Of a stretch of 64,000 bases of DNA, positions 8,734 to 34,640 are shown one piece after another. Numbering within the stretch: the stretch's first letter is position 1; each line of letters begins with the position of its first letter. Position numbers and translations under genes: made by a program. Under the pieces are notes generated by a model. The model ran no database searches, was not told where the DNA came from, and was given only the letters and a program-made list of their open reading frames with translations. Source of the stretch: a virus; IMG/VR virus record IMGVR_UViG_3300037502_003770, positions 53,643 through 117,642 of that record, one strand, 5' to 3'.

Positions 8734-9088
8734 ATGAATAACATATATATTTCTAATGACTTTTTTATTTATATAGATTATGACTTGGGTTATAATTTAT
8801 TTTTAATAAATTTTAAAGAAACAAATATTTTTAGCGAATATAGTCTTTATTACAAGCGACAACTTATCAAACATAAAACCAAAGATGTTTATTTTTTTTA
8901 ATATTATTGAAATTATTGAAAATATAGATATTTCAGAAAAATTTTTAATTAATATAATAGAATTTTTCTATAGTAATGAATATAGTATTCATCTTGGTAT
9001 TAATAATATTAAATATTTACCTAAAAAATATGTAACCGTTTATGAAAATATTATTAAATATTTCCACTTTAAACCTTTAAGAATTTAA
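8734..9088 (+). pseudogene. FamA gene split by a frameshift in a T8 tract (ORFs 8734..8901 and 8885..9088)
   Basis: ORF1 MNNIYISNDFFIYIDYD... ends in GTTTATTTTTTTTAA. ORF2 starts inside the same T-run in the +1 frame and carries the DUF4116-like INNIKYLPKKYVTVYENIIKYF. Confidence 0.45.
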
Positions 9089-10375
9089 CCTCTTAACTGT
9101 CTCGGTATTACGGATAATACCTCTATCTCCTCATGTAAACAATCGGAGATTGCATTTGAATACTTCTTCATTATATTATAACTACCATTTACATCAGCAT
9201 TTATAACTATCCCTTTTGAAGATTTAAATAATTTTGTTGTAATCCTACTACCCAAATAACTATCTTTCTTACATAAAGACTCATTATCTAAAAAAGAACA
9301 CTTACTTGTATAAGATTCCTCTTGTCTTACAAGTTTGATTCCCTTTTCAAATAACTTGTACTCTAACATAGAAAATAATTTATAATAAGGTATCATTACA
9401 AAATTTTGATTATTTTTCTTTCCATTATTAATGTCTTGTTTCCATTCTTTATTTCTACCTACTACTAAAGTATGATAGTTTTTTGAAACTAAATGATTCA
9501 CTAATAATTTACTTATTTTATGTAAATAATCTTCTATTTTGTTATTTCTTCTTAAATTTAATTTTTCTATCCTTTTAGAAGTATAAACTCCTTTATCTAA
9601 CTTACTTCTAAACTCAGCTAACTTCTTATTATAATATTGATTTATATTCTTTAATGGTTTACCATTTATTATTAAAGGTTGTTTATTATCAGAAAAAGTT
9701 AATGTTAATAAATTATTAACACCTACATCCGCTGAACACACCCTTTCTTTAGAAGATGGTTTAACAAAAAGAGATGTATCTATTTTTTTAGAATAAACAA
9801 CTTCTATTACATAATATCCATATTTAGGAACAATTCTTACTTGTTTAATATTAGTTTTATTCACTATCTTACTTTCTAATAAAATAGAAGTCATACTTAA
9901 CTTAATCAACCCTTTAGAAAGAAATTTCTTATCTTTAGAAATAGCACCTTTTTCATAGGTTGTGATGTATTTTCTATTTTTATCTAAATATTTAGGAATA
10001 TTAACCTTTTCATTATATTTTCCTTTTAATTTAAGTTTTAATAAAGAAAAGAAAGATTTAAAGTTTTTATCTACTAATTTTAAAGTTTGTTTAGATACTT
10101 TATCAGGTAACTCTCTATAATCAAAAGAATCTCTTACTTTATAATAGAGTTGTAAATAAGAAAGATATTTTTTTGTTTCAAAGAAATGTTGTCTTACAAT
10201 AAAGAGGGCATAGTTATAGAGATTTCTACTTTTAGTACAAAGAGTTTCACATTCAGAAAAGAATTTATGATTAGGAGTTATTGTATATTTTTGTACTCTA
10301 TTAACTAACATTTAAAATAAGTATATTTATATATAAATAGTAAAAATAAATTATTTTTATTAACAGAAAGGTGTA
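9075..10375 (-). mobile_element. tnpB-only IS200/IS605-like element (no tnpA)
   Basis: Left end tatataaatagtaaaaataaattat at ~10330-10356 is shared with the three TnpB-like paralog elements. Boundaries approximate. Confidence 0.55.
9085..10311 (-). CDS. tnpB: TnpB (IS200/IS605 OrfB-type RuvC-like nuclease, classic zinc-finger form)
   Basis: 408 aa. RuvC-I SADVGVNN, RuvC-II LVVGRNKEWKQ, YTSKCSFLDNESLC zinc-finger region, RuvC-III DVNGSYNIMKK. N-terminal YNYALFIVRQ is TnpB-like. Confidence 0.85.
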   Translation of the reverse strand: MLVNRVQKYTITPNHKFFSECETLCTKSRNLYNYALFIVRQHFFETKKYLSYLQLYYKVRDSFDYRELPDKVSKQTLKLVDKNFKSFFSLLKLKLKGKYNEKVNIPKYLDKNRKYITTYEKGAISKDKKFLSKGLIKLSMTSILLESKIVNKTNIKQVRIVPKYGYYVIEVVYSKKIDTSLFVKPSSKERVCSADVGVNNLLTLTFSDNKQPLIINGKPLKNINQYYNKKLAEFRSKLDKGVYTSKRIEKLNLRRNNKIEDYLHKISKLLVNHLVSKNYHTLVVGRNKEWKQDINNGKKNNQNFVMIPYYKLFSMLEYKLFEKGIKLVRQEESYTSKCSFLDNESLCKKDSYLGSRITTKLFKSSKGIVINADVNGSYNIMKKYSNAISDCLHEEIEVLSVIPRQLRG

Positions 10376-10501
10376 TAAAATATAATATAAAAATATTAAC
10401 ATTTTCAAAGTCTGAAATTTTAACAACATATATTAAAGGATTTTTGAATTCTTCAGAAAAAAAGTATTCTTTAAATAAAAAAGACTTATTAAAAATAAAA
10501 A

Positions 10502-11062: not shown

Positions 11063-11063
11063 A

Positions 11064-11633: not shown

Positions 11634-11634
11634 A

Positions 11635-12198: not shown

Positions 12199-12199
12199 A

Positions 12200-15214: not shown

Positions 15215-15442
15215 ATGAAGGATGATATTTTTTTACAAATTGATATAAATACTGGTCACACAAAATACTTTGAACGTGACAGTAAATTTAATTTAAAACT
15301 TTCTTTAATTATTATTTATTTTACAGAAGAGACTTTTTTGAATAAAAATGGTTTGTATCTTTTACTTATAATGAAAGATGGTAAAACCATTTTCTTTAAA
15401 GATTTTAGACATCAAAAAATAATTTATTATGTTGGAAATTAG
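15215..15442 (+). CDS. FamA-short protein
   Basis: IFLQIDINTGHTKYFERD motif; tandem position in the array. Confidence 0.35.
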   Translation: MKDDIFLQIDINTGHTKYFERDSKFNLKLSLIIIYFTEETFLNKNGLYLLLIMKDGKTIFFKDFRHQKIIYYVGN

Positions 15443-15623
15443 TATATATTATAATTATACAACTTACAATGAAATTTTTGATATTAGCGTATTGAAATCA
15501 TGTCTTAATATACAGATAAAAGAATATATAGTTTTCCATGAATATATACAATCTTTTTCTAAGTTAATTTCATATTATAATAAAAATCTTCGTAACTTAA
15601 AATATTATGTTAATAAAAATTAA
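15429..15623 (+). CDS. FamA-short-like protein (weak)
   Basis: MLEISIYYNYTTYNE; overlaps its neighbours. Confidence 0.3.
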   Translation: MLEISIYYNYTTYNEIFDISVLKSCLNIQIKEYIVFHEYIQSFSKLISYYNKNLRNLKYYVNKN

Positions 15624-15855
15624 ACTCTCAGAACATTGTTTTTATATTGAGGATTCTTTATACTCAAGACCTTTTACAAGAAGGAACTTTGCTTTTGATT
15701 TAATTTTAAATAATTTTAATGAAATAACATATTTTTTCAATAATAATTTTTATTTAACATGTAATATAAATAAAAATAATATTGAATATTTTGATATTTC
15801 ACTAATGACTGGTATTAAAAATTTTCTTAATTTAACGCATTATATACCAACATAA
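15607..15855 (+). CDS. FamA-short protein
   Basis: MLIKIKLSEHCFYIEDS. Confidence 0.4.
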   Translation: MLIKIKLSEHCFYIEDSLYSRPFTRRNFAFDLILNNFNEITYFFNNNFYLTCNINKNNIEYFDISLMTGIKNFLNLTHYIPT

Positions 15856-16149
15856 ATGTTAGACATTATTTTATATATAGATTGCTTTCAATATATTGAG
15901 GCAACAATAGTGGATATCGGTTCACCAAAAAAAATCTTATTTAGATTAGATTTAAATAATAAAAATAGAATTTTTATTGAAATAAATAGATTTTCTTTAA
16001 AGAAAGGTTATTTTTCATTAATTAACTTTATAAAAGAACGCAAAATTTTATTTAATGATTTAGATTATATAAATATTTTAGATTTAAAATATTATTTTAA
16101 AATATCAAATTCTATCAAAGAGAAAGATTCTCACCTTGCTTTTCTCTGA
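15856..16149 (+). CDS. FamA-short protein whose 3' end runs into the antisense of TnpB-like copy 1
   Basis: MLDIILYIDCFQYIEAT...DLKYYFKISNSIKEKDSHLAFL. The last ~15 codons lie opposite the TnpB-like C-terminal coding region. Confidence 0.4.
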   Translation: MLDIILYIDCFQYIEATIVDIGSPKKILFRLDLNNKNRIFIEINRFSLKKGYFSLINFIKERKILFNDLDYINILDLKYYFKISNSIKEKDSHLAFL

Positions 16150-17495
16150 ATTTAACTGAAAAACTTTATAAGAATGTAAACATTCTTCAATAGAAACTCT
16201 ATATCTCATTTTAGAGTTTTTTATTTTAAGGTAAACTTCCTTCCAATCCTTACAATTAATAAAAGTTTCCTTCCATTGGTCTTTTATTAACAGATTTGGA
16301 TAAAAATTTCCCTTATTTCTTTTAATTATACATTCTATTCCCCTGCGTAAAATTTCTATTGAGGCATTAACAGCATCGCTGTAATCATATTGCAAATTGC
16401 CTATAATAGATGAATACGCAGGATTTATTCTGTATAATTTAATATCTTCAATAAATAACCTTTTTGAAAGATTTTCTATAAAAAGATTTCTTTTCCAAAG
16501 GTTATTATTTTTTCTATTATATTTTCTTCCTTGACCAGCATTTTTACTTTTAAAAGATAAGTCTTCAATAAAAACCGCTTTACAATTATAATACTTTGCA
16601 ACTAAAGAAATCTTCTTAGAGATTTCAATTACTTCATGTTTAATTTTATTCTGAAAGTACTTTGCTTCTTGAGAATCAGTTGATAATTTTAAGGAAATAA
16701 ATTTATCAGTTAGTTCTTTTAAAGAAAACTCTTGGCAATGAATAAGTTTATCATCTTCCATAATAGAAATACCTATATTATTAGGATTCATATCTATCCC
16801 TAAATATCTTTCTTTTGAAGGGAGAAATTTCTTTTCTTGAGATTTAAATTCTTCAAAAGAAATATAAATGTATTTTAAATCAAGTTTTACAGAAAATTTA
16901 TAACCATTCTCAAAACAATCAATATCATTTAATTCCTCAAGTTTAAATAATTCCTTTTTAATATTTCTTCTTAAAGAAGGGAGGTATAAAGGAATATGTA
17001 AATTTCTATTTACTTTAAAAGTGATTTTATTGTTATCAATAATATCTAATTCAAAATAAGTATTTCCTTTATTAGATGTTGTTCCTTGACAAGTAATAGG
17101 TGATAATTTATTTATTTTAAATTCATCATTACTTATCTTACCTTTACATCTTTCATAAAAGTTATTCTTTCCACCAAAAATAACTTTTTGATTTTGAAAT
17201 CTTGTATGAACATCTTTTCCTTCTAAAATAGCGTATTCTATTTGTTTAGAATTAAGCTTTCCAATATTATTTAAACCTTTAAGTAAAGATTTCATTTCTT
17301 TAATATCTGTTATCCCTTCAAAATATCTATTATATGAAAACCTTATTACAGAAGAGAATTGTTTCATTAAAGAATGGATTTCTTTTAATGAATTTACATC
17401 AGTAGTATAAGGCATTTTAATAGTTTTCAAAAGTCTTTAATGTTTATTATAAATAGTAAAAATAAATTATTTAGTATATAATTTTATAACGAATT
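16085..17495 (-). mobile_element. tnpB-like-only IS element, copy 1
   Basis: Shared 3' flank TAAAATATCAAAT just past the stop; shared left end tgtttattataaatagtaaaaataaatta at 17441-17470. Confidence 0.55.
16105..17430 (-). CDS. TnpB-like RuvC nuclease paralog 1 (no zinc-finger insertion in RuvC-III)
   Basis: RuvC-I GIDMNPNNIG, RuvC-II AVFIEDLSF, RuvC-III INPAYSSIIGNLQYDYSDAVNASIEI. No CxxC between PAYSS and DAxNA. Called start is TTG; the ATG 5 codons in gives MPYTT. Confidence 0.75.
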   Translation of the reverse strand: MKTIKMPYTTDVNSLKEIHSLMKQFSSVIRFSYNRYFEGITDIKEMKSLLKGLNNIGKLNSKQIEYAILEGKDVHTRFQNQKVIFGGKNNFYERCKGKISNDEFKINKLSPITCQGTTSNKGNTYFELDIIDNNKITFKVNRNLHIPLYLPSLRRNIKKELFKLEELNDIDCFENGYKFSVKLDLKYIYISFEEFKSQEKKFLPSKERYLGIDMNPNNIGISIMEDDKLIHCQEFSLKELTDKFISLKLSTDSQEAKYFQNKIKHEVIEISKKISLVAKYYNCKAVFIEDLSFKSKNAGQGRKYNRKNNNLWKRNLFIENLSKRLFIEDIKLYRINPAYSSIIGNLQYDYSDAVNASIEILRRGIECIIKRNKGNFYPNLLIKDQWKETFINCKDWKEVYLKIKNSKMRYRVSIEECLHSYKVFQLNSEKSKVRIFLFDRI

Positions 17496-17534: not shown

Positions 17535-17756
17535 ATGAAAATATTTATAGGAAATTGGTTGTTCACTTATGAAGAAATTAATTTAAAAGGTAAAATTGAA
17601 GTTTACTTTTGTATTCATTCTTTATATAACAGTCTTTTTATTTATCAACAAAAATCAAAAAAATTAACTATTTTAACTATAAATGATAATATAAAAAGAA
17701 TAAGTTTTAGTCGTTATACTCTTAATGTTCATAATTTAAACTATTATATAAACTAA
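17535..17756 (+). CDS. FamA-short protein
   Basis: MKIFIGNWLFTYEEIN; TAATG overlap with the permease start. Confidence 0.4.
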   Translation: MKIFIGNWLFTYEEINLKGKIEVYFCIHSLYNSLFIYQQKSKKLTILTINDNIKRISFSRYTLNVHNLNYYIN

Positions 17757-18930: not shown

Positions 18931-19280
18931 TACAAATATTTAATGAAAACTTCTTTTATTTAGAAGGTGGTTTACAAGATAATGTATATGATAGAATACT
19001 AAGTTGTTTTATCTACTTTAATTCTTTCATTCACGATTATTTTATTAGTAAATTTGATAAAAATAAAGTAGAACTAAATTTATATCATTTTGAGATATAT
19101 AATAAGATAGAACTAAATAGAAGTTATAAAAAAATTCCTTATGAAATAACATTTACTTTAAATAAATTTTTTGTAAAAAAAGCTTCTTTTTCTTTAGTAA
19201 CAAATATTTACAAATATGCAATATCTTGTGGAAATATTAAGAAAACTAACTTACCAAAGAAATTTCAAAATTTATGTTAA
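18927..19280 (+). CDS. FamA protein (FFYLEGG subtype)
   Basis: MIQIFNENFFYLEGGLQ; near-identical to 18565 at the 5' end; ATGA overlap. Confidence 0.55.
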   Translation: MIQIFNENFFYLEGGLQDNVYDRILSCFIYFNSFIHDYFISKFDKNKVELNLYHFEIYNKIELNRSYKKIPYEITFTLNKFFVKKASFSLVTNIYKYAISCGNIKKTNLPKKFQNLC

Positions 19281-19480
19281 TAAAAATAGAATTTTCAAAC
19301 AACAATAATTATTTTGAAACGGAAGTAGGAAGGTTTTATTTTCATTTTACTATAACCTTTTATTATGAATGTGTTCATATTCTTGAAAGTACATTAAATT
19401 ATATTTATATTAAATATAATAATGAATATTTATATAAAAATTTTCAAAATATTAATAAACTTAATTTAAAATATTATTAG
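19274..19480 (+). CDS. FamA-short protein (C-terminal NLKYY)
   Basis: MLIKIEFSNNNNYFETE...NINKLNLKYY. Confidence 0.45.
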   Translation: MLIKIEFSNNNNYFETEVGRFYFHFTITFYYECVHILESTLNYIYIKYNNEYLYKNFQNINKLNLKYY

Positions 19481-19485
19481 TAATT

Positions 19486-19710
19486 ATGTATACTTATATT
19501 ATAATAATAGAATTATCAAACGATATTAATTATTATGAAAGAGAGCAATTTGCGAGTTTTTATTTTCATTTTGTAATATCTTGTATTTATTATGAATGTA
19601 TGCGCTTTAATGAGAGTTTAATATTAATTTATATTGAACATAACGATAAAGATTTATATAATTATTATAAAAATATTAACAAACTTAATTTAAAATATTA
19701 CTTGTTTTAA
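19486..19710 (+). CDS. FamA-short protein
   Basis: ...IIELSNDINYYERE...NINKLNLKYYLF; paralog of 19274. Confidence 0.45.
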   Translation: MYTYIIIIELSNDINYYEREQFASFYFHFVISCIYYECMRFNESLILIYIEHNDKDLYNYYKNINKLNLKYYLF

Positions 19711-19728: not shown

Positions 19729-20520
19729 ATGATTACTTACAAAAAAGAAGAACTTATTTTATCAGTAAATGACCTTTCTGTAAAGTATGGTGATAAACAA
19801 ATATTAAAAGATATTTCTTTTGATATTCATAATATTACAAGACCAAATCTTACTCAAGGACAAATCATATCTATTTGTGGTAGAAGTGGTTGTGGTAAAA
19901 CATCTTTATTTAAAACTATATCAGGTTTTTTAAAACCAACAACAGGAACTATAAAAATAGGTGTTGAACAAAAAGATGTAATTATGGGTGAGGTTGGTGT
20001 TATTCAACAAGATTATCCTTTATTTAATCATAGAACTGTTTATGAAAATCTTTCTCTTAGTTTAAAAAACGTTAAGACAGATAACGAAAAGAAAGAAAAA
20101 ATACATCATTATTGCGATTTATTTAATCTTTTGGAACATTTAAATAAATACCCTTCACAACTATCAGGTGGTCAAAGACAAAGAGTATCTATATTACAAC
20201 AGGTATTAACTGAAAATAAGTTTATTCTTATGGATGAACCATTTTCAGGATTAGATGTTTTAATGAAAGATAAAGTTATTGAACTTATGTTAAAGGTTTC
20301 AAATCTTGATGAAATGAATACTTTAATAATAGTTTCTCATGATATTGAATCATCTTGCGCTATTTCTGATACTGTACATATTTTAGCAAATAAAGATAAT
20401 ACAGGCTCTACAGTTGTTAAATCATATGACTTTCTAAAAGAAAATCTTGCTTATAGAAAAGATATTAAAGATGATTATAATTTCAAAAGAATTATTAATG
20501 AAATAAAAAGTTTAATCTAA
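19729..20520 (+). CDS. ABC transporter ATP-binding protein (SsuB/TauB-like)
   Basis: Walker A GRSGCGKTSL, signature LSGGQRQRVSI, Walker B ILMDEPFSGLD, H-loop IVSHD. Confidence 0.9.
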   Translation: MITYKKEELILSVNDLSVKYGDKQILKDISFDIHNITRPNLTQGQIISICGRSGCGKTSLFKTISGFLKPTTGTIKIGVEQKDVIMGEVGVIQQDYPLFNHRTVYENLSLSLKNVKTDNEKKEKIHHYCDLFNLLEHLNKYPSQLSGGQRQRVSILQQVLTENKFILMDEPFSGLDVLMKDKVIELMLKVSNLDEMNTLIIVSHDIESSCAISDTVHILANKDNTGSTVVKSYDFLKENLAYRKDIKDDYNFKRIINEIKSLI

Positions 20521-20717
20521 TGCAGATACTTATTTATTTAGAAAGGCATTCAAAATATTTTGAATATTATTATGATAATTCTTTTGAAGAAAGTTTAGTA
20601 TTTGAAATTAGAACATCTTTTTCGTTTGAATTTGTTAAAAATTTTATAATAGAAATATGGGAAAAAAATAATGATTCTTGGTATTATTATAATAAATTAA
20701 AATATTACGTATGTTAA
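20520..20717 (+). CDS. FamA-short protein
   Basis: MQILIYLERHSKYFEYYY...NKLKYYVC; TAATG overlap with the ATPase stop. Confidence 0.4.
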   Translation: MQILIYLERHSKYFEYYYDNSFEESLVFEIRTSFSFEFVKNFIIEIWEKNNDSWYYYNKLKYYVC

Positions 20718-20911
20718 ATATAGGTATTATTATTTTAAATAATGATTTTCGTTATTATGAATATTTTATTGGTATATTTGTTTTTGAAATTGATAATTTT
20801 GTTTTTTCTGAAACTTTTGAAATTGGTTATCATATTAGACTAGAAAGTTTAAGAAAAAACGGTAAGCGTTATTTTATTGCAAATGTTTTTAATTTAAAAT
20901 ATTACTTATGA
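20711..20911 (+). CDS. FamA-short protein
   Basis: ...ILNNDFRYYEYF...NVFNLKYYL. Confidence 0.45.
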   Translation: MLNIGIIILNNDFRYYEYFIGIFVFEIDNFVFSETFEIGYHIRLESLRKNGKRYFIANVFNLKYYL

Positions 20912-21108
20912 TAAGAATAAATTTTAATAATGGTCTTTATGAAGAATGGTTACATAATTGTAATATATATACTTTTGTTACTTTAGTGTATTATTTTGAA
21001 TGTGTAAGCTTTTTAAATTCAAGTTTTCAAATTAATGAATTAAAATTTAAAGGGAATTATTTTTATTATAAAAATATTAATCTTCTTAATTTAAAATATT
21101 ACTTATGA
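20908..21108 (+). CDS. FamA-short protein
   Basis: MIRINFNNGLYEEW...NINLLNLKYYL; ATGA overlap. Confidence 0.45.
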   Translation: MIRINFNNGLYEEWLHNCNIYTFVTLVYYFECVSFLNSSFQINELKFKGNYFYYKNINLLNLKYYL

Positions 21109-21323
21109 TTCATATTTTTTCTCTTAATAAAAACATTTTTTATTCAGAAAAATTTATATTTAATGCTGATGTATTTCTTGTTCGTTTAAATATTAATAAT
21201 TATGTTGAAAGTATTATGTTTGATTATAATTTTATTCTATTAGAAATGGAATATTCGATGTTTATAGAAATTAATAAACTTCTTAAATTAAAATATTATT
21301 TAAGTTATTACTTATGGCTGTAA
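21105..21323 (+). CDS. FamA-short protein
   Basis: MIHIFSLNKNIFYSEKF...INKLLKLKYYL; ATGA overlap. Confidence 0.45.
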   Translation: MIHIFSLNKNIFYSEKFIFNADVFLVRLNINNYVESIMFDYNFILLEMEYSMFIEINKLLKLKYYLSYYLWL

Positions 21324-21523
21324 ATATATATTTAACAAATTCTTCTTATAGGGAAAGACAACATGAATATTATATTAGTAATATATTTCATAATGAAAAT
21401 ACTATTTTCAGTTCGATATATTCTTTACAATTAGCATCTTTAATAAAAAATAAAATCTTTTATTATTCAATAGTACAAAAATATAATACTGTTTTAAAAT
21501 TAAAATATTATTTATGGGAATAA
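21314..21523 (+). CDS. FamA-short protein (divergent N-terminus)
   Basis: ...NTVLKLKYYLWE. Confidence 0.4.
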   Translation: MAVNIYLTNSSYRERQHEYYISNIFHNENTIFSSIYSLQLASLIKNKIFYYSIVQKYNTVLKLKYYLWE

Positions 21524-21744
21524 AAATTTGTTTTAACAATACTACATGGAATTTTTATATTGAATTTTTTTCTTATAAAGAGTGTATTTTCACTATTAAA
21601 ATTTTATCTAATTTAATAACATCTACATTAATTGGAAATAAATTACAAGATGTTGTTTTAAAAATAAAAAATAATACACTATTAACAACTGATTCCATTA
21701 AAAACGTTACCACTAATGTTCTTAATTTAAAATTTTATATATGA
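21514..21744 (+). CDS. FamA-short protein (divergent)
   Basis: ...NVLNLKFYI. Confidence 0.4.
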   Translation: MGIKICFNNTTWNFYIEFFSYKECIFTIKILSNLITSTLIGNKLQDVVLKIKNNTLLTTDSIKNVTTNVLNLKFYI

Positions 21745-21956
21745 TAATAAGTATTAAAATTTCTAATAATAATTTTTCTTATGACGAAAATATTTCCAGT
21801 ATTTATGATAATACTATAATAACTAACTTATGGATTTTTAAATGTTTTGAAGATAGAATTTTTATTAACACAATAAATCAAATAATAGAAATGATTTACT
21901 ATATTACAATTAATAATTTCACAGTATACAGTAATAATAAATATTATAAAACTTAA
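21741..21956 (+). CDS. FamA-short protein (divergent, no KYY tail)
   Basis: MIISIKISNNNFSYDEN...; ATGA overlap. Confidence 0.35.
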   Translation: MIISIKISNNNFSYDENISSIYDNTIITNLWIFKCFEDRIFINTINQIIEMIYYITINNFTVYSNNKYYKT

Positions 21957-21965
21957 AGAACTAAA

Positions 21966-22193
21966 ATGAGAATAAATATTAAAATAAAAACATATTTCTT
22001 TAAATATGAAGAATTTAATTTAGTAGATGAAAATATGATAACTCATCTAGACCTTTCAAATATCTTTTATTTTGAAAGAAGTTATTTTTCTTTAAATGTA
22101 GATAATTATAAAATATATGCAATTTATAAAAATAGATTTCTTTATTTTGAAAATCGTGATGTTAATTTACTTAAATTAAAATATTATCTATGA
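21966..22193 (+). CDS. FamA-short protein
   Basis: MRINIKIKTYFFKYEEFNL...VNLLKLKYYL. Confidence 0.45.
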   Translation: MRINIKIKTYFFKYEEFNLVDENMITHLDLSNIFYFERSYFSLNVDNYKIYAIYKNRFLYFENRDVNLLKLKYYL

Positions 22194-22402
22194 GATTACA
22201 AATTGTTTTTAATTTTGGAGGTTATTATAGTGAACTTGATAAATATGTAATTGTTTACATTTATCCAAAATATTATGATATTTATTTTAATGATGTATTT
22301 TATTATATTGATTCAAATATAAAATTAATAGAAGTAAGGCATTTAAACAGCAAAAAATATTCTCGTGAATATAAAGATTTCATTTTAAAATACTATACAT
22401 AA
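22190..22402 (+). CDS. FamA-short protein
   Basis: MRLQIVFNFGGYYSELD...FILKYYT; ATGA overlap. Confidence 0.4.
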   Translation: MRLQIVFNFGGYYSELDKYVIVYIYPKYYDIYFNDVFYYIDSNIKLIEVRHLNSKKYSREYKDFILKYYT

Positions 22403-22612
22403 TGAAGATAGAAATTAAATCAACATATTTTACGTATTATGAAAGACTTGGTTATGATGTTCAAAATTATTTTTCTTTAAATTTAGATTGGATTTTTTTT
22501 AGAAGATATAGATTTATATAAAAATGAATTTATTATGAATTTTGTAGGTTTTGGTCAAAAATGTTTTTATTCAAAAAATAGTAATTTACTTAAATTAAAA
22601 TATTATATATAA
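22402..22612 (+). pseudogene. FamA-short gene frameshifted at a T9 homopolymer
   Basis: Frame a: MKIEIKSTYFTYYERLGYDVQNYFSLNLDWIFF... Frame b after GATTTTTTTTTAG: ...FFLEDIDLYKNEFIMNFVGFGQKCFYSKNSNLLKLKYYI ending at 22610-22612. Confidence 0.45.
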
Positions 22613-24000
22613 AATATTAAATTCTTTCAAAGACAAAAGTTTTCACCTTGCTTTTCTCTGAACTTAACTGAAAAACTTTATAAGAATGCAAACATTCTTC
22701 AATAGAAACTCTATATTTCAATTTAGAGTTTTTTATTTTAAGAGAAATTTCTTTCCAATCTGTACATTTAATAAAAGTTTCCTTCCAACGGTCTTTTATT
22801 AACAAATTGGGATAAAAATTTCCCTTATTTCTTTTAATTATACATTCAATTCCTCTGCGTACAATTTCTATTGAGGCATTAATAGCATCAGTATAATCAT
22901 GTTGCAAATTGCCTATAATAGACGAATACGCAGGATTAATTCTGTATAATTTAATATCTTCTATGAATAACCTTTTACTTAAATTTTCAAAAAACAGATT
23001 CCTTTTCCAAAGGTCATTATTTTTTCTGTTATATGTTTTTCCCTTACCAGCGTCTTTTTGTTTAAATGATAAATCTTCAATAAAAACTGCTTTACACTTA
23101 TAATATTTTGCAAGTAATGAAATCTTTTTTGAAATTTCAATTACTTCATGTTTAATTTTATTCTGAAAGTACTTTGCTTTTTCAGAATCAGTAGATAGTT
23201 TTAAAGAAATAAATTTATCAGTTAATTCCTTTAAAGAAAACTCTTGACAATGAATAATTTTATCATCTTCCATTATAGATATACCTATATTATTGGGATT
23301 CATATCTATTCCTAGATACCTTTCTTTTGAAGGAAATTTCTTTTCTTCATATTTAAATTCTTCAAAAGATATATAAATATATTTTAAGTCAAGTTTTACA
23401 CAAAATTTATATCCTTTCTCACCAAACTTTATATCATTTAATTCTTGAAGTTTAAATAATTCTTTTTTAATATTCTTTCTTAAAGAAGGAAGGTATAAAG
23501 GTATATGCACATATTTATTTACTTTAAATATAATTTGATTATTATCAATTATATCTAAATTAAAATAAGAATTTCCTTTATTATTAGTTATTCCTTGACA
23601 CGTAATAGGTGAAAGTTTATTTATTTTAAATTCATCTTTACTTATTTTAGCTTTACACCTTTCATAAAAATTATTCTTTCCTCCGAAAATAACCTTTTCA
23701 TTTTGAAATCTTGTATAAACATCTTTTCCTTCTAAAATAGCATACTCTATTAGTTTAGAATTAAGTTTATTTATATTATTTAAATTAGAAAGTAAAAATT
23801 TTATTTTCTTAATATCAGATATCCCTTCAAAATATCTATTATAGGAGTACCTTACTACAGAGGAGAATTGTTTCATCAAAGAATGAATTTCTTTTAATGA
23901 AGTATCATCTGTAGTGTAAGGCATTTTAATAGTTTTCAAAAGTCTTTAATGTTTATTATAAATAGTAAAAATAAATATAATTTTTTTAACAAATCATTTT
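22598..24000 (-). mobile_element. tnpB-like-only IS element, copy 2, immediately 5' of tRNA-Met
   Basis: Shared 3' flank TAAAATATTAAAT; shared left end at 23951-23980. Confidence 0.55.
22617..23939 (-). CDS. TnpB-like RuvC nuclease paralog 2 (no zinc-finger insertion)
   Basis: 440 aa, near-identical to copies 1 and 3; GIDMNPNNIG, AVFIEDLSF, INPAYSSIIGNLQHDYTDAINASIEI. Confidence 0.75.
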   Translation of the reverse strand: MKTIKMPYTTDDTSLKEIHSLMKQFSSVVRYSYNRYFEGISDIKKIKFLLSNLNNINKLNSKLIEYAILEGKDVYTRFQNEKVIFGGKNNFYERCKAKISKDEFKINKLSPITCQGITNNKGNSYFNLDIIDNNQIIFKVNKYVHIPLYLPSLRKNIKKELFKLQELNDIKFGEKGYKFCVKLDLKYIYISFEEFKYEEKKFPSKERYLGIDMNPNNIGISIMEDDKIIHCQEFSLKELTDKFISLKLSTDSEKAKYFQNKIKHEVIEISKKISLLAKYYKCKAVFIEDLSFKQKDAGKGKTYNRKNNDLWKRNLFFENLSKRLFIEDIKLYRINPAYSSIIGNLQHDYTDAINASIEIVRRGIECIIKRNKGNFYPNLLIKDRWKETFIKCTDWKEISLKIKNSKLKYRVSIEECLHSYKVFQLSSEKSKVKTFVFERI

Positions 24001-24029
24001 AAATCAAGTATTATATAAACAAACACAAT

Positions 24030-24103
24030 GGACCTATAGCGCAACTGGTCAGAGCAGCTGACTCATAATCAGCAGGTTTCAGGTTCAAATCCTGATAGGT
24101 CCA
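24030..24103 (+). tRNA. tRNA-Met (anticodon CAT; could also be initiator or tRNA-Ile2 type)
   Basis: Acceptor ggaccta/taggtcc; anticodon stem gctga/tcagc with loop ctCATaa; T-arm tcagg-ttcaaat-cctga; D-loop with GG; no encoded CCA. Confidence 0.8.
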
Positions 24104-24121
24104 CTTTAAAATTTTATAAAA

Positions 24122-28355: not shown

Positions 28356-28426
28356 TAATTTTTTAACAAAAAAGAATCTTTCTTGTAATATAAATCAATT
28401 CAATGTTCAACTAAACAAAAAAAACA
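28356..28426 (+). promoter_or_regulatory. degenerate TPC cassette copy (leader type 1)
   Basis: ttttttaacaaaaaagaatctttcttgtaatataaatcaa...ctaaacaaaaaaaacaATG. Confidence 0.4.
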
Positions 28427-29023
28427 ATGAAAAACTTTCTAATTCTTTTAATGCTTGTATTTACTTTCAGCATTACAACTTTTGCACAAACTCAAACTAC
28501 CACAACACCTGATTATGGTTTTGCTAAAGGTCAAATTACTATTGGTGGTAATCTAATGGGTTACGCTGTTAAAACTAGTAGTCCCTCAATTACTGAATCA
28601 GCTTTTGGTGGTGGCTTAAATTTAGGTTATATGTTATCAGCTAAACATAATATTGCTTTAATGACAGATTATGTGAGTACATCTGATAATTCAAGACAAA
28701 ATACTTTTGGTTTAAGTTATACTTTTTATCCACTAAATCAAAGAGTCGCACCATATTTACAAGTTAACGCAGTAAGATTTAATAGAACAGAAAATAGTGG
28801 TCTTGTTAGTTCTATTACTTCAGAAACGGAAACCACAGTTAGAGGTTATTCAGCTTATCTAAGTGCTGGAGTTTGTTACAGGGTACATACAGACTTTTGG
28901 ATTTCAACTCAGTTTAACTTCTTACAATACCAAAGATATGATGATAGTGATTATACTGTAACTGAATTTGGTACATTACAAGCACCATTTACTTTAGGAG
29001 TACAATATTTCTTGAGTAGATAA
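28427..29023 (+). CDS. outer-membrane beta-barrel protein (small OMP)
   Basis: Signal peptide MKNFLILLMLVFTFSITTFAQ; alternating amphipathic strands; aromatic-rich C-terminal strand. Confidence 0.55.
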   Translation: MKNFLILLMLVFTFSITTFAQTQTTTTPDYGFAKGQITIGGNLMGYAVKTSSPSITESAFGGGLNLGYMLSAKHNIALMTDYVSTSDNSRQNTFGLSYTFYPLNQRVAPYLQVNAVRFNRTENSGLVSSITSETETTVRGYSAYLSAGVCYRVHTDFWISTQFNFLQYQRYDDSDYTVTEFGTLQAPFTLGVQYFLSR

Positions 29024-30739: not shown

Positions 30740-31012
30740 ATGGAAAAAATAGAACTGCAAGAAGTGGAAATTATGGATGAAGATACTATTTCTTCAAAAC
30801 AAATAGTCCTTTATAATGACGATTTCAATACATTTGATAATGTTATTAAATGTTTAATGGTTTATTGTAAACATGTGTATGAACAAGCACTACAATTTGC
30901 TATGCAAGTGCATGAAAAAGGTAGATGTTCCGTTAAAGAGGGTTCATATAAAGAATTAAAACCTATTTGCGAGGCTTTACTTGAGAAAGGTTTATCAGCT
31001 CAAATAGAATAA
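30740..31012 (+). CDS. clpS: ATP-dependent Clp protease adaptor ClpS
   Basis: 90 aa; VLYNDDFNTFDNVIKCL...AMQVHEKGRCSVKEGSYKELKPICEAL matches the ClpS core. Confidence 0.8.
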   Translation: MEKIELQEVEIMDEDTISSKQIVLYNDDFNTFDNVIKCLMVYCKHVYEQALQFAMQVHEKGRCSVKEGSYKELKPICEALLEKGLSAQIE

Positions 31013-31019
31013 AAGATAT

Positions 31020-31523
31020 ATGAAACATAACATACAACAAGAAAAATTTTCTTTATTTATTGAAAAAAATTTCATAATAGAATATGAAAAAAATACCACA
31101 TCATATAGAATAGATGTTTATAATGATGTAAAAAAATATGATAAATATCTTATTGACAAATATATTAAAACGGATGATACTTTTCGAGTACTAAACTTAT
31201 TTCAAAATTTAAAATTAGAATATTATAATGGTTTATTATCATTAAATTTTGAAAGAAAAGAACATATTTATATAAATTATAGTTCTCTTGAATATGGTAC
31301 TCAACATAATAAAGAAAAATTCCTAAACGAAGTAATTAAATATTTACCGCAAACAGATTTAACTAAAAAAATAGATTTTTCTAAAAGAAATATTTTTGGT
31401 AGTACAAATCATGTATTTATTAAAGACATACCTTTTTTTAATGAAAAATTTATTCCATTAAATGTAGAACCTTATGTAAAAAATGCTATTACTAATAATA
31501 ATTTTTTAATAAATTATATATAG
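31020..31523 (+). CDS. hypothetical protein
   Basis: 167-aa ORF. Confidence 0.45.
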   Translation: MKHNIQQEKFSLFIEKNFIIEYEKNTTSYRIDVYNDVKKYDKYLIDKYIKTDDTFRVLNLFQNLKLEYYNGLLSLNFERKEHIYINYSSLEYGTQHNKEKFLNEVIKYLPQTDLTKKIDFSKRNIFGSTNHVFIKDIPFFNEKFIPLNVEPYVKNAITNNNFLINYI

Positions 31524-31542
31524 TAAGGATATTATTCACCGT

Positions 31543-31619
31543 TTTAACAAAAAACATTATTTCTTGTAGTATAAATCAGTTCAAACAAAACAACAATTAA
31601 ACAAAAACAATTTTCTCTT
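31543..31619 (+). promoter_or_regulatory. degenerate TPC cassette copy (leader type 1)
   Basis: ttttaacaaaaaacattatttcttgtagtataaatcagttcaaacaaaacaa... Confidence 0.4.
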
Positions 31620-32429: not shown

Positions 32430-32449
32430 GAAGAAATAAAATTATATTA

Positions 32450-32486: not shown

Positions 32487-32497
32487 TAAAGATAAAT

Positions 32498-32809
32498 ATG
32501 TTTATAAAAATAATTATAACAACAAATACATTTTTCTATTCTGAATGTATTACTAGTATATATGGGAATGGTAGTAGTTTATTATATTGTGAATATATCA
32601 ATAGTCAATACTGTTTTAATTTTGAAAAAGCTACTGAATGGAATGCTTATTTCAAAATTAATGAAAATTTATGGATTACTTTTCAATTACCTATGTCAGA
32701 TTTTCATTTAAATGATGTGTATTTATTTTTAGACTTTCGTGATAAACATTCATATAATAATTTATCTAATTTTTTTAAAAAATTTAAACCAAATGAATAT
32801 AAATATTAA
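32498..32809 (+). CDS. FamA protein
   Basis: MFIKIIITTNTFFYSECIT. Confidence 0.5.
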   Translation: MFIKIIITTNTFFYSECITSIYGNGSSLLYCEYINSQYCFNFEKATEWNAYFKINENLWITFQLPMSDFHLNDVYLFLDFRDKHSYNNLSNFFKKFKPNEYKY

Positions 32810-33293
32810 TACAGAACATTGTTTTTATCAAGAAATTAATTATTATTTAGAATATAATATTAAACCAATTTTTATTTTAATAAATAAGTTTTTTTCTGAG
32901 GAATGGTTTCTTCCTTTAATTGGTATAACTTATTTTTATAATAATTTATTTCATAATAAAACAGTTAAATCTTTAAGAAAAACTCATCTTTATGAATATA
33001 TATTATTAAGTTTTTTACGTATTAGGATGAAACTTGATAAATTAAATAAAACCACAATAAAACAAAGTGTTGATAATTTTATTCATCATACACATATAAC
33101 ATATTATACAGAAAATATTTGTAAAGAATTAATAAAATATTATGGTATTGAAATTATTAAATTTTTACCAAATAAATTCTTTACTAAAAAACTGTATATT
33201 TTTATGTATGATTTATTAGGCAATGAATTGCTTTCTTTACATAAAATATCAAATTCTTTCAAAGACAAAGGTTTTCACCTTGCTTTTCCTTGA
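32793..33293 (+). CDS. FamA protein whose 3' end runs into the antisense of TnpB-like copy 3
   Basis: ORF track 32739..33293; motif MNININTEHCFYQEIN from ATG 32793; tail ...KISNSFKDKGFHLAFP lies opposite the TnpB-like C-terminus. Confidence 0.4.
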   Translation: MNININTEHCFYQEINYYLEYNIKPIFILINKFFSEEWFLPLIGITYFYNNLFHNKTVKSLRKTHLYEYILLSFLRIRMKLDKLNKTTIKQSVDNFIHHTHITYYTENICKELIKYYGIEIIKFLPNKFFTKKLYIFMYDLLGNELLSLHKISNSFKDKGFHLAFP

Positions 33294-34640
33294 ATTTAAC
33301 TCAAAAACTTTATAAGAATGTAAACATTCCTCAATAGAAACTCTATATTTCAATCCAGAGTTTTTTATTTTAAGGGAAACTTCCTTCCAATCCTTACATT
33401 TAATAAAAGTTTCCTTCCAACGGTCTTTTATTAATAGATTTGGATAAAAATTTCCCTTATTTCTTTTAATTATACATTGAATTCCTCTGCGTACAATTTC
33501 TATCGAGGCATTAACAGTATCAGTATAATCATGTTGCAAATTGCCTATGATAGATGAATACGCAGGATTTATTCTGTATAATTTAATATCTTCAATAAAT
33601 AATCTCTTTGAAAGGTTCTCTACAAACAAATTTCTTTTCCAAAGGTTATTATTTTTCCTGTTATATGTTGTTCCTTTACCAGCATTTTTATCTTTAAAAG
33701 ATAAATCTTCAATAAAAACAGCTTTACAATTATAATATTTTGCAATCAAAGAAATCTTTTTTGAAATTTCGATTGTTTCAAATTGTATTTTATTTTGAAA
33801 GTACTTTGCTTTATCAGAAGAAGAATCTAATTTTAAAGAAATAAATTTATCTATTAACTCTTTTAAAGAAAATTCTTGACAATAAATAAGTTTATCATCT
33901 TCCATAATAGAAATACCTATATTATTAGGATTCATATCTATTCCTAGATATCTTTCTTTTGAAGGGAGAAATTTCTTTTCTTCATTTTTAAATTCTTCAA
34001 AAGAAATATAAATATATTTTAAATCAAGTTTAATAGAAAATTTATAACCTTTTTCAAAATTAGGTTTTACATCATTTAATTCTTGAAGTTTATACAAATC
34101 TTTTTTAATATTTTTCCTTAAAGAAGGTAAATATAAAGGTATATGTAATTTTTTATTTACTTTAAAAATGATTTGATTATTATCAATTATATCTAATTCA
34201 AAATAAGAATTTCCTCTATTATTGGTAACACCTTGACACGTAATAGGTGAAAGTTTATTTATTTTAAATTCATCTTTACTTATATTTCCTTTACATCTTT
34301 CATAAAAATTATTCTTTCCACCAAAAATAACCTTTTGATTTTTAAATCTTGTGTGAACATCTTTTCCTTCTAAAATAGCGTATTCTATTAATTTAGAATT
34401 TAAATCTTGAATATTATTTAAACCTTTAAGTAAAGACTTTATTTTTTTAATATCAGTTATTCCTTCAAAATACCTATTATAAGAAAACCTTACTACAGAA
34501 GAGAATTGTTTCATTAAAGAATGAATTTCTTTTAATGAATTTACATCAGTTGTATAAGGCATTTTAATAGTTTTCAAAAGTATTTAATGTTTATTATAAA
34601 TAGTAAAAATAAATTATTCTTTTAACAAATAGAAGTCTTT
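33232..34640 (-). mobile_element. tnpB-like-only IS element, copy 3
   Basis: Shared 3' flank TAAAATATCAAAT; shared left end at 34589-34618, then ttttaacaaatagaagtcttttctgtattata which matches the 3' half of the TPC hairpin. Confidence 0.55.
33249..34577 (-). CDS. TnpB-like RuvC nuclease paralog 3 (no zinc-finger insertion)
   Basis: 442 aa; GIDMNPNNIG, AVFIEDLSF, INPAYSSIIGNLQHDYTDTVNASIEI. Confidence 0.75.
   Translation of the reverse strand: MKTIKMPYTTDVNSLKEIHSLMKQFSSVVRFSYNRYFEGITDIKKIKSLLKGLNNIQDLNSKLIEYAILEGKDVHTRFKNQKVIFGGKNNFYERCKGNISKDEFKINKLSPITCQGVTNNRGNSYFELDIIDNNQIIFKVNKKLHIPLYLPSLRKNIKKDLYKLQELNDVKPNFEKGYKFSIKLDLKYIYISFEEFKNEEKKFLPSKERYLGIDMNPNNIGISIMEDDKLIYCQEFSLKELIDKFISLKLDSSSDKAKYFQNKIQFETIEISKKISLIAKYYNCKAVFIEDLSFKDKNAGKGTTYNRKNNNLWKRNLFVENLSKRLFIEDIKLYRINPAYSSIIGNLQHDYTDTVNASIEIVRRGIQCIIKRNKGNFYPNLLIKDRWKETFIKCKDWKEVSLKIKNSGLKYRVSIEECLHSYKVFELNSRKSKVKTFVFERI

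What the first reader, a model, noticed from the sequence alone, without database searches (positions are those of the whole stretch)
9075..34640. All four tnpB-type elements share a left end, lie next to the loop half of the TPC terminator hairpin, and abut FamA gene 3' ends
The four elements are 9085-10311, 16105-17430, 22617-23939 and 33249-34577. Upstream of each tnpB start on the minus strand (to the right on the + strand) is the same block tt(t)ataaatagtaaaaataaatta. In copies 0, 2 and 3 this block is followed by ttaacagaaaggtgtataaaatataat, ttttttaacaaatc..., or ttttaacaaatagaagtcttttctgtattata. These match the loop and 3' half (TTAACAG-AAAGAAGTCTTTTTTGTAATATA) of the repeated terminator cassette. 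That points to insertion into or next to the hairpin loop (TTTAACA|GAA), consistent with single-strand hairpin targeting by the IS200/IS605 family. At the other end each element abuts or overlaps the 3' end of a FamA gene: 8885..9088, 15856..16149, the frameshifted 22402..22612, and 32793..33293. No tnpA is present in the window, so the elements are non-autonomous or use a tnpA elsewhere.
Basis: partly seen in the sequence, partly recalled or inferred. Interest (0 to 1): 0.65.

Follow-up and report, generated by a model that had tools for sequence, protein, structure and literature searches.

The report
IS607-type TnpB modules beside phage promoters
The four antisense genes are stripped-down IS607-type mobile elements (an RNA-guided TnpB-like nuclease plus its guide-RNA scaffold, transposase gene lost) in a very AT-rich giant-phage-like genome. 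They sit just upstream of the -35 box of ordinary promoters rather than being hairpin-loop insertions by an IS200/IS605 transposase; this is a known kind of element with one odd site preference.

Summary

**Two gene families.** c0 (9085-10311) is a canonical TnpB. c1-c3 are a separate family without the zinc finger, with a Cas12f/TnpB-like fold and no hit in the local Pfam.

**IS607, not IS200/IS605.** A 97%-identical c0 relative is preceded by a serine-recombinase tnpA. Serine-recombinase ORFs lie upstream of the c1-3-type match in 11 related loci; it is immediately upstream in the four examined. No Y1 tnpA was found, and no left-end (LE) hairpin. The window copies lack tnpA.

**Guide-RNA scaffold.** The last ~130 nt of the c1-3 family, up to a sharp right end (RE) (G/A)TATTTT(A/G), fold into helices with strong covariation, as expected of an omegaRNA.

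**The "loop half" is a promoter.** It reads TTAACA-N17-TA(A/T)TAT. In full cassettes the -35 box lies in the terminator loop. Two empty sites in this window have the promoter without any hairpin.

**Site preference.** The LE lies 4-13 nt from a -35 box in 7 of 10 independent insertions (P about 1e-6 under a random-intergenic model). The cause is unresolved.

**FamA.** The association holds weakly for c1 and c2 only. The "overlaps" are ORFs reading into element DNA.

The parts
9034..10357 (-). c0: IS607-type element with tnpA cleanly deleted. It comprises the right end and 3' UTR (9034-9084), tnpB (9085-10311), and a left-end/promoter block (10312-~10357).
   Evidence: Pfam OrfB_IS605 3e-18 and Cas12f1-like_TNB. 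L131 positions 783-2060 match window 10312-9034 at 96%. In L131 a PF00239 Resolvase gene sits 8 nt upstream of the 97%-identical tnpB. The region upstream of c0 resembles, by direct reading, the region upstream of tnpA in L131.
16098..17471 (-). c1: tnpA-less module encoding a zinc-finger-less TnpB-like nuclease (gene 16105-17430, TTG start). No promoter box lies next to its left end.
   Evidence: Copy-to-copy boundaries. Conserved RuvC D/E/D residues and no CxxC motif.
22610..23980 (-). c2: same module (gene 22617-23939).
33242..34616 (-). c3: same module (gene 33249-34577). It is orthologous in position to L001 copy #1.
33242..33375 (-). [quoted passage not shown] The equivalent regions are 22610-22743 in c2 and 16098-16231 in c1.
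   Evidence: On alignment A7 of 25 family members, RNAalifold finds a long-range helix with 7 of 8 pairs compensatory. A three-helix model is 85% paired against 38-54% for slid controls, with covariation 0.41 against 0.05-0.16 and 0/500 shuffles reaching it. The right-end motif (G/A)TATTTT(A/G) is kept down to 33% protein identity.
33222..33241 (-). Inferred guide-encoding flank of c3. The equivalents are 22590-22609 for c2, 16078-16097 for c1 and 9014-9033 for c0.
   Evidence: Inferred by analogy with IS607/IS605 TnpB, where the guide begins at the right-end boundary. The c2 guide matches 8 other FamA 3' ends with 3 or fewer mismatches: 11 matches in all against 3 expected. No shared TAM lies next to them.
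34622..34650 (+). Promoter of the downstream Metallophos gene: TTAACA-N17-TATTAT. Its spacer keeps the right arm of the terminator cassette.
   Evidence: 10/12 match to the consensus; best site in the region
23986..24014 (+). Promoter TTAACA-N17-TATTAT directly upstream of tRNA-Met (24030-24104).
10360..10388 (+). Promoter TTAACA-N17-TAATAT next to the c0 left end.
31530..31619 (+). Empty counterpart of L001 copy #2. It holds the promoter TTAACA(31544)-N17-TAGTAT and leader of the Band_7 gene, with no hairpin.
44390..44431 (+). Empty counterpart of the L130 insertion. The junction is at 44397-44405, immediately 5' of the -35 TTAACA at 44403.

Best explanation
The four elements are tnpA-less derivatives of IS607-family transposons living in a roughly 313-kb, 21%-GC phage-like genome.

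**What each copy contains (shown).**
- A short left end (LE) that also holds the gene's upstream region.
- A RuvC nuclease gene of the TnpB/Cas12f superfamily. c0 is a classical TnpB. c1-3 are a phage-borne lineage without the zinc finger.
- A structured 3' region ending at a sharply defined right end (RE).

**How it probably works (inferred, by analogy with characterised IS607/IStron systems).**
- The 3' region is transcribed as an omegaRNA. Its guide is the 16-20 nt of flanking DNA just past the RE.
- The nuclease-RNA complex then cuts alleles that lack the element. In co-infecting or replicating phage genomes, recombinational repair copies the element back in (homing).
- New sites are reached either through a serine-recombinase TnpA supplied in trans, or through recombination.

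**The flank (shown).** The 'hairpin-loop half' next to the LE is the intact sigma70-type promoter (TTAACA-N17-TAnTAT) of the next + strand gene. In this genome's compact terminator-promoter cassettes the -35 box happens to lie in the hairpin loop.

**The site preference (not settled).** The elements prefer the position just upstream of that -35 box. On the element's strand this reads TGTTAA(AA), followed by the LE. The most likely reason is that this motif serves as the target or TAM-like site, or as a patch of homology with the LE terminus. Selection to keep the downstream promoter intact would add to the pattern.
For: **IS607 affiliation**
- L131 carries a 97%-identical c0 protein with a PF00239 Resolvase gene 8 nt upstream. 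Homology to the window begins exactly at the tnpB start.
- tblastn finds serine-recombinase ORFs upstream of the c1-3-type match in L058, L073, L099, L011, L119, L124, L106, L047, L051, L023 and L031.
- In the four examined (L058, L073, L099, L011) the ORF ends at or within about 50 nt of the gene start, on the same strand. All four are PF00239.
- tnpA remnants (L062/L064, L066) or clean deletions with the LE retained (L057, L059, L060, L065) occur in sister copies.

**Nuclease**
- D209, E285 and D348 are invariant in 36 sequences, and there is no CxxC motif.
- Foldseek gives AsCas12f E=1e-8, ISFba1 TnpB 1.5e-4 and ISDra2 TnpB 3.5e-4.

**omegaRNA**: covariation in the 3' region and a conserved RE terminus.

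**Mobility**
- Three copies at 86-89% identity lie in this window.
- Two filled/empty site pairs exist with related contigs.
- The family is multi-copy in many large IMG/VR contigs.

**Promoter reading**
- The pattern gives 27 + strand hits against 9 on the - strand. Only 7 of the + strand hits carry a strong hairpin.
- The LE lies 4-13 nt from a -35 box in c0, c2, c3, L001#2, L132A, L132B and L134. In L130 the RE side faces the box.
- Under a random-intergenic model, 7 or more of 10 gives P = 6e-8 to 7e-7.
- L131 also has CTGTTAAT at its LE side, inside a co-oriented ORF and so not at a promoter.
Against: - No tnpA lies in the window or in any window-clade contig fetched, so trans-mobilisation is unproven.
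- The LE boundary is ragged. c1, L129 and L130 lack the outer LE and TGTTAA. A site-specific recombinase should leave identical termini.
- L001#2 is flanked by a ~65-nt direct repeat. L130 carries 65 nt of foreign DNA and an LE truncated at a microhomology. IS607 transposition makes no duplication (PMC6188088).
- A core dinucleotide shared by the LE flank and the RE end (TA or TG) is plausible but not demonstrable in DNA this AT-rich.
- The structure model has low confidence outside the RuvC core (mean pLDDT 60). Profile-profile comparison of c1-3 with the c0 family is not significant.
- No transcript, cleavage or TAM data exist.
- The 10 sites come from several related contigs. Their independence is inferred only from their different flanks.
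Confidence: 0.72

Rival explanations
1. These are IS200/IS605-family elements placed by a Y1 HUH TnpA acting on single-stranded DNA. The terminator hairpin loop (TTTAACA|GAA) is the structural target.
For: The left end abuts TTAACA in c0, c2 and c3. In 7 full cassettes this motif is the hairpin loop. IS200/IS605 elements do insert 3' of a short motif with the left end adjacent (general knowledge).
Against: Relatives carry serine recombinases, not Y1 TnpA. The left ends have no hairpin. Both empty sites lack a hairpin. At c3 and L001#1 the hairpin's left arm is missing on the right-end side. The distance from the conserved left-end block to TTAACA varies.
Confidence: 0.03
2. There is no targeting. 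Insertions land anywhere, and only those between a stop codon or terminator and the next -35 box survive in a tightly packed phage genome. Promoter adjacency would then be a selection footprint.
For: Only about 7% of the window is intergenic. All copies keep the downstream promoter intact. Upstream ORFs are only trimmed or extended at their 3' tips.
Against: Even among 'permissible' intergenic positions, 7 of 10 within 15 nt of a -35 box gives P of about 7e-7. Nine of 10 copies are antisense to their neighbours, with the left end facing the promoter in 7; selection alone does not predict this. L131 has the same CTGTTAAT motif at a non-promoter site.
Confidence: 0.12
3. The elements spread by recombination rather than transposition. 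The left-end terminus and its flank (TTGTTAAAA) share 8-9 nt with every promoter of this class. The modules move between promoter cassettes by short-homology or microhomology recombination or by template switching, as proposed for the 'mobile regulatory cassettes' (PeSL) of T4-type phages (recalled from memory, not checked here). TnpB-made breaks may stimulate this.
For: L001#2 is flanked by a ~65-nt direct repeat of the local promoter and leader. That is the product expected when a circle integrates by homologous recombination or after a template switch. The L130 junction lies at a 7-8 nt microhomology with a truncated left end and carried-over foreign DNA. Left ends are ragged while right ends are sharp. 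Promoter and leader modules are repeated across the genome.
Against: Flanking repeats are significant only for L001#2. The c1 score is marginal (p about 0.02) and the others are at background. The right-end junctions show no homology with their targets. A sharp right end in 10 copies fits site-specific excision, or constraint on the scaffold, better.
Confidence: 0.2
4. The genes are domesticated phage genes, such as RNA-guided nucleases or regulators used against competitors or the host. They would no longer be mobile, and the shared upstream block would simply be a phage promoter for them.
For: All copies lack tnpA. The 20-25 nt block lies about 20 nt upstream of the start codon in c0, in c1-3, and upstream of tnpA in L131. 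It contains a perfect TATAAT. Phage-encoded TnpB derivatives with regulatory roles are known (TldR; titles listed).
Against: Site occupancy differs among close relatives and there are multiple diverged copies per genome. The flanks past the right end differ at every copy, as for transposon-borne guides. The catalytic triad is intact, unlike TldR-type inactivated forms.
Confidence: 0.08

Closest known systems
IS607-family transposons and IStrons (serine-recombinase TnpA_S, TnpB and omegaRNA; e.g. the Clostridium botulinum IStron, H. pylori IS607)
   Same: Complete relatives have a small serine recombinase with an N-terminal HTH directly upstream of the RuvC nuclease gene. There are no terminal inverted repeats. 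A structured RNA overlaps the 3' end of the nuclease ORF and stops at the right end. Copies without tnpA are common.
   Different: The window copies have lost tnpA entirely. The ends are extremely AT-rich, with ...TATTTT(A/G) at the right end instead of the GG core (PMC6188088; bioRxiv 10.1101/2023.11.20.567912). The c1-3 nuclease lacks the zinc finger. The left end recurs next to a promoter -35 box. Two copies have non-canonical junctions: a 65-nt repeat in one and carried-over DNA in the other.
Solo-TnpB elements (IS1341-type) and standalone omegaRNA modules
   Same: They encode only the nuclease and its RNA between transposon-like ends, and presumably rely on a transposase in trans or on homing (PMC10691335).
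   Different: IS1341-type elements are usually related to IS200/IS605 ends with hairpins. These derive from IS607-type ends and show no left-end hairpin.
Zinc-finger-less TnpB branches in the Altae-Tran et al. 2023 classification (e.g. RIIIr-4, noted as virus-associated)
   Same: No C4 zinc finger between RuvC-II and RuvC-III. Enriched in viral contigs (PMC10691335).
   Different: RIIIr-4 is described as having the RuvC-III Asp replaced by His. This family keeps an invariant Asp in T-D-x-x-N-A-S. I could not place it in that tree.
Promoter-early stem-loop 'mobile regulatory cassettes' of T4-type phages
   Same: Repeated promoter/stem-loop cassettes between genes. A gene flanked by two cassette copies (L001#2) is the signature proposed for cassette-mediated shuffling.
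   Different: The cargo here is itself a transposon-derived nuclease with its own ends. Only one copy shows the flanking repeat.

Membership tests
IS607 family | Serine-recombinase TnpA (PF00239 catalytic domain, N-terminal HTH) encoded upstream of the nuclease gene | tested here: inconclusive
   Absent from all four window copies. Present directly upstream in a 97%-identical c0 relative (L131), and upstream of the c1-3-type gene in 11 related loci. The window copies are therefore derivatives, not complete members.
IS607 family | No terminal inverted repeats; ends unrelated apart from short direct motifs | tested here: met
   No inverted repeat joins the two termini of c3. Both ends share AAAGAAT...ATTTTTA-like motifs in direct orientation; this is by eye and was not tested statistically.
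IS607 family | No target-site duplication | tested here: inconclusive
   No significant flanking repeat for c2, c3, L129 or L130, and a marginal one for c1. L001#2 has a ~65-nt flanking repeat, which is not canonical.
IS607 family | Identical 2-bp crossover core at the LE flank, the RE terminus and the target | tested here: inconclusive
   The right end finishes in T(A/G). Under one reading the LE flanks finish in TA or TG. The LE boundary is uncertain by about 12 nt, and such dinucleotides are everywhere in 21%-GC DNA.
IS200/IS605 family | Y1 HUH TnpA | tested here: not met
   tblastn with IS608 TnpA (sequence recalled from memory) gives no hit in the window or beside family members. Neighbour gene tables show no Y1_Tnp.
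IS200/IS605 family | Subterminal DNA hairpins at both ends, recognised in single-stranded form | tested here: not met
   Left-end DNA folds no better than shuffles: c3 z=+1.4, c0 z=-0.2. The hairpins near the right end are accounted for by the RNA scaffold.
TnpB/Cas12 (OMEGA) RNA-guided nucleases | Split RuvC domain with a D-E-D catalytic triad in the C-terminal half | tested here: met
TnpB/Cas12 (OMEGA) RNA-guided nucleases | C4 zinc finger between RuvC-II and RuvC-III | tested here: not met
   Met for c0 (TNB domain). Absent in c1-3 and in all 36 aligned relatives. Zinc-finger loss is documented in some TnpB branches (PMC10691335).
TnpB/Cas12 (OMEGA) RNA-guided nucleases | Structured guide RNA encoded at the 3' end of the gene, ending at the transposon boundary | tested here: met
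   Covariation analysis for the c1-3 family. Not analysed for c0. No Rfam family matched.
TnpB/Cas12 (OMEGA) RNA-guided nucleases | RNA-guided, TAM-dependent DNA cleavage | not testable with these tools
   Needs biochemistry or plasmid-interference assays.
FamA small-protein family (C-terminal L-x-L-K-Y-Y), as the supposed common neighbour | The adjacent ORF matches a profile built from array members | tested here: not met
   c1 neighbour E=0.07 and c2 neighbour fragment E=0.02, both weak. The c0 and c3 neighbours give no hit.

The most novel reading that the evidence does not exclude
The reverse complement of this phage's consensus -35 region (TTGTTAAAA) may be the true target or TAM of a phage-adapted IS607 lineage. 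Its zinc-finger-less TnpB-like nuclease and omegaRNA would then home specifically to the upstream edge of phage promoters. It might spread without its own transposase, by nuclease-stimulated short-homology recombination. That would account for sharp right ends, ragged left ends, a 65-nt flanking repeat, and one left end shared by two unrelated nuclease lineages.
Probability: 0.25. Interest if true: 0.6.

Novelty: new member of a known kind. Interest (0 to 1): 0.38.

Why it matters
- It corrects the mechanism: double-stranded serine-recombinase/homing biology rather than single-strand hairpin targeting.
- It shows that the 'half cassette' is a working promoter whose -35 box is embedded in the terminator loop. 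This is a tidy piece of phage genome economy.
- It documents a compact (~440 aa) zinc-finger-less TnpB-like nuclease family with a clearly delimited guide-RNA scaffold. The family is widespread and multi-copy in large phages and could interest genome-editing prospecting.
- It records a strong, unexplained preference for the upstream edge of promoters. If this reflects target recognition, it would be an unusual example of a selfish element using regulatory motifs as safe harbours in a virus.

Tried and rejected
- **Flanking direct repeats as a general feature.** By eye c1, c2 and c3 seemed to have them. Local alignment against mock-insertion controls supports only L001#2 (score 94), with c1 marginal (32, p about 0.02).
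- **An LE-like remnant at the Band_7 empty site.** It looked convincing by eye but scores below the shuffle background.
- **The RE-proximal coding sequence as the missing left arm of the hairpin.** It is protein-coding, and the C-terminus differs in other clades. Dropped.
- **Sequence homology between c1-3 and TnpB.** Pfam gave no significant hit (best E = 0.009-0.03 to the unrelated DUF2420). PHROGs gave only weak RuvC resolvase hits. PDB sequence and profile searches gave at best E=0.08 to Cas12j/Cas12X. hhalign against the c0 family was not significant. Only fold comparison and genomic context place the family.
- **Window identity.** No megablast match among GenBank phages.
- **More copies by exact LE 27-mer.** None in metagenome contigs or viral contigs.
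- **Literature search for 'SSO2105'** (the name of precomputed Pfam PF27229): no papers.
- **A shared TAM next to the FamA 3' ends that match the c2 guide.** None found.
- **Rfam.** Only the tRNA matched.

Full report
**Setting.** The window is about 21% GC. Almost every gene is on the + strand. The source contig is 312,694 bp. Gene content (OmpA-domain protein, AAA ATPase, RNA ligase, one tRNA-Met, many small ORFs) and synteny with metagenomic contigs point to a very large phage-like genome. GenBank phages give no megablast match.

**The observation.** The four ORFs are where stated. The 20-mer TATAAATAGTAAAAATAAAT occurs exactly four times, once upstream of each gene. Identity reaches about 25 nt between c0 and c1. 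The quoted flanks are correct.

The four genes are not one family.
- c0 (9085-10311) hits Pfam OrfB_IS605 (3e-18) and the Cas12f1-like TNB zinc-ribbon domain.
- c1-c3 give no significant Pfam hit and only weak RuvC-resolvase hits in PHROGs.
- c1-c3 are 86-89% identical to one another and about 25% identical to c0.

**What c1-c3 encode.**
- The big protein collection holds 458 relatives with E <= 0.001. Those below the near-identical group in the list are about 432 aa and 51-59% identical. Some are labelled 'IS605 OrfB family transposase' by JGI, and many carry the precomputed Pfam entry PF27229 (SSO2105_N).
- In an alignment of 36 sequences, D209 (GIDxNP), E285 (FIEDL) and D348 (YTDAVNAS) are invariant. 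No CxxC pair lies between the second and third motifs.
- The AlphaFold model is confident only in the RuvC core (mean pLDDT 60).
- Foldseek aligns the model along nearly its whole length to AsCas12f (E=1e-8), other Cas12f proteins, ISFba1 TnpB (1.5e-4) and ISDra2 TnpB (3.5e-4).
- Sequence-only comparisons fail.
- The family is concentrated in IMG/VR viral contigs, many of 100-500 kb, often with several copies per contig. In the genome collection it appears in MAG contigs and, distantly, in cyanobacteria.
- Zinc-finger-less TnpB branches, some virus-associated, are already described (PMC10691335).

**Both types belong with IS607, not IS200/IS605.**
- A 97%-identical c0 protein sits on contig L131 directly downstream (8 nt) of a 190-aa PF00239 Resolvase gene.
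- L131 aligns to the window from the first base before the tnpB start codon to 50 nt past the stop (783-2060 = 10312-9034, 96%).
- By direct reading, the ~45 nt upstream of c0 resemble the region upstream of tnpA in L131. So c0 is an IS607-type element with tnpA neatly removed. Its right end (RE) is at window 9034.
- tblastn with the L131 recombinase finds ORFs upstream of the c1-3-type match in eleven loci. Two of them, L058 and L073, are 57-58% identical to c3.
- In the four loci examined (L058, L073, L099, L011) the ORF ends at or within about 50 nt of the gene start, on the same strand. All four are PF00239 proteins, two with HTH_17/MerR-type N-termini.
- Sister copies keep N- or C-terminal tnpA remnants, or only the left end (LE).
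None appears in any neighbour table.
- IS607 transposons have no terminal inverted repeats and make no target duplication. They exchange DNA at a 2-bp core and move as double-stranded circles (PMC6188088; bioRxiv 10.1101/2023.11.20.567912).
- Consistent with that, c3 has no terminal inverted repeat. The LE DNA of c3 and c0 folds no better than shuffles.

**Ends and RNA.**
- Comparing ten copies (c1-c3; L001#1 and #2; L129; L130; L132A and B; L134) fixes the RE of the c1-3 type to the base...GAAAGAATTT(G/A)ATATTTTA|. Unrelated sequence follows in every copy.
- The terminal (G/A)TATTTT(A/G) survives down to 33% protein identity.
- In an alignment of the last 130 nt from 25 diverse members, RNAalifold finds a long-range helix in which 7 of 8 pairs show compensatory change.
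- A three-helix model is 85% paired against 38-54% when partners are slid. Covariation is 0.41 against 0.05-0.16, and no shuffle out of 500 reaches it.
- This is the anatomy of an omegaRNA scaffold overlapping the 3' end of tnpB, with the guide starting at the boundary. Transcription and function are inferred.
- The LE is less well defined. Most copies read TTGTTAAAA(A/G)AATAATTTATTTTTACTATTTATAATAAAC... up to the TTG start. c1, L129 and L130 lack the outer part.

**What the 'hairpin-loop half' is.**
- A census of TT[AG]ACA-N16-18-TAnn[AT]T gives 27 hits on the + strand and 9 on the - strand. Twenty of the + strand hits lie in or at intergenic DNA.
- Seven overlap a strong hairpin (about -12 to -17 kcal/mol) in which TTAACA is the loop. 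The right arm is the 17-nt spacer ending in TG, followed by TAATAT or TATTAT. This is a terminator fused to the next promoter.
- The rest are plain promoters of the same class.
- The flanks of c0 (10360), c2 (23986, 16 nt upstream of tRNA-Met) and c3 (34622) are such promoters. Only c3's spacer retains the cassette arm (26/30 to the consensus).
- No complementary left arm lies on either side of c3 or its orthologue L001#1.

**Empty sites.**
- L001 is syntenic with window 26.5-36 kb. It has an extra copy between a 299-aa gene and the Band_7 gene. The window lacks it and shows ...caccgTTTTAACA-N17-TAGTAT... with no hairpin.
- L130 is syntenic with window 43.4-51.6 kb. It has a co-oriented copy inserted at window 44397-44405, immediately 5' of the -35 box at 44403, again with no hairpin.
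The hairpin is not what recurs.

**How non-random is the position?**
- The LE lies 4-13 nt from a correctly spaced -35/-10 pair in seven of ten independent sites: c0, c2, c3, L001#2, L132A, L132B and L134.
- In L130 the RE side faces the box. c1 and L129 are exceptions.
- With 4.7-6.9% of intergenic positions qualifying, 7 or more of 10 has P = 6e-8 to 7e-7.
- Caveats: the sites are pooled from related contigs, and selection is not modelled.
- L131 also has CTGTTAAT at its LE side inside a co-oriented ORF. This hints that the sequence, not promoter function, matters (a single case).
- I cannot separate three causes: a TAM-like target motif, short homology between the LE terminus and promoter boxes, or selection.

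**Irregular junctions.**
- L001#2 is flanked by a ~65-nt direct repeat of the local promoter and leader (score 94 against a null 95th percentile of 28).
- In L130 the LE is truncated at a 7-8 nt microhomology, and 65 nt of foreign DNA, including a (TA)n run, lies between the RE and the promoter.
- These fit recombination or template switching better than clean serine-recombinase insertion. They are why the spread mechanism is left open.

**FamA.**
- The arrays at 15.2-16.1, 17.5-17.8 and 19.3-22.6 kb encode 65-80-aa proteins ending in L-x-L-K-Y-Y.
- Against a profile of 15 members, the ORF beside c1 scores E=0.07 and the fragment beside c2 E=0.02. The ORFs beside c0 and c3 do not hit.
- The overlaps arise because these ORFs read 50-54 nt into the element.
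- Joining the two flanks of c1 over a single TA restores ...KYYFI*, a typical FamA end. This assumes a simple insertion (direct reading).
- The putative c2 guide matches eight other FamA 3' ends with 3 or fewer mismatches: 11 matches in all against 3 expected. No common motif lies on the TAM side, so paralogue homing is only a possibility.

**Verdict.** These are ordinary in kind: tnpA-less IS607-type TnpB/omegaRNA modules, one of them a phage-enriched lineage without the zinc finger. The mechanism differs from the one proposed. One real and statistically strong oddity remains, the preference for the upstream edge of promoter -35 boxes, along with a few unexplained junctions. Interest is moderate to low.

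Noticed in passing
window 45245-45304, 54980-55040, 55825-55880, 59816-59875, 61406-61465, 61900-61960, 62288-62347: Compact terminator-promoter cassettes. The hairpin loop is the -35 box (TTAACA) of the next promoter, the right arm is the 17-nt spacer ending in TG, and the -10 (TAATAT or TATTAT) follows. The 55825-55880 copy has DNA-fold z = -4.6.
   Followed up: partly
window 15215-16149, 17535-17756, 19274-19710, 20520-22612: Tandem arrays of 65-80-aa paralogues ending in L-(N/K)-L-K-Y-Y, often with overlapping stop and start codons. Function unknown. The last member before c2 is frameshifted.
   Followed up: partly
L001 8722-8790 and 7290-7355 (window counterpart 31540-31619): A ~65-nt direct repeat of the Band_7 promoter and leader flanks the extra element copy in the related contig. 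The left copy would drive transcription antisense into the nuclease gene. Origin unexplained.
   Followed up: partly
L130 2324-2388: 65 nt of DNA with no counterpart in the window lies between the element's right end and the native promoter. It includes a (TA)11-like run and is bounded by GATGAATT repeats. It may be flank carried over from an earlier site.
   Followed up: no
window 28392-28430, 31573-31619, 54619-54650, 55041-55070: Several promoters are followed by a similar leader (AAATCAA(T/A)TCAA...CTAAACAAAAAA) before the ATG. This suggests a repeated promoter-plus-5'UTR module.
   Followed up: no
window 24030-24104: A single tRNA-Met (CAT) lies 16 nt downstream of the promoter that abuts the c2 left end.
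   Followed up: partly
window 30740-31523 vs L001 8777-11937: Between the ClpS-like and Band_7 genes the window has one 167-aa ORF, where the related contig has four genes (100, 137, 384 and 299 aa). This is a mosaic replacement next to the element site.
   Followed up: no
window 33238-33241 vs L001 5700-5733: Next to the c3 right end the window reads ACAT, where L001 has 34 nt (GGGTGGAAACTTTTTAATAAATAAACATTACCTT). This is a small deletion or insertion right at the putative guide position.
   Followed up: no
window 10312-10357; L131 150-202; L058 and L073 upstream of tnpA: A TTT(C)TTTAC/ATAT...TATAA motif about 20-25 nt upstream of the first ORF is shared by three otherwise different IS607-type elements. 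It may be a promoter or a TnpA-binding site. It contains a perfect TATAAT but no -35 box at 16-18 nt.
   Followed up: partly
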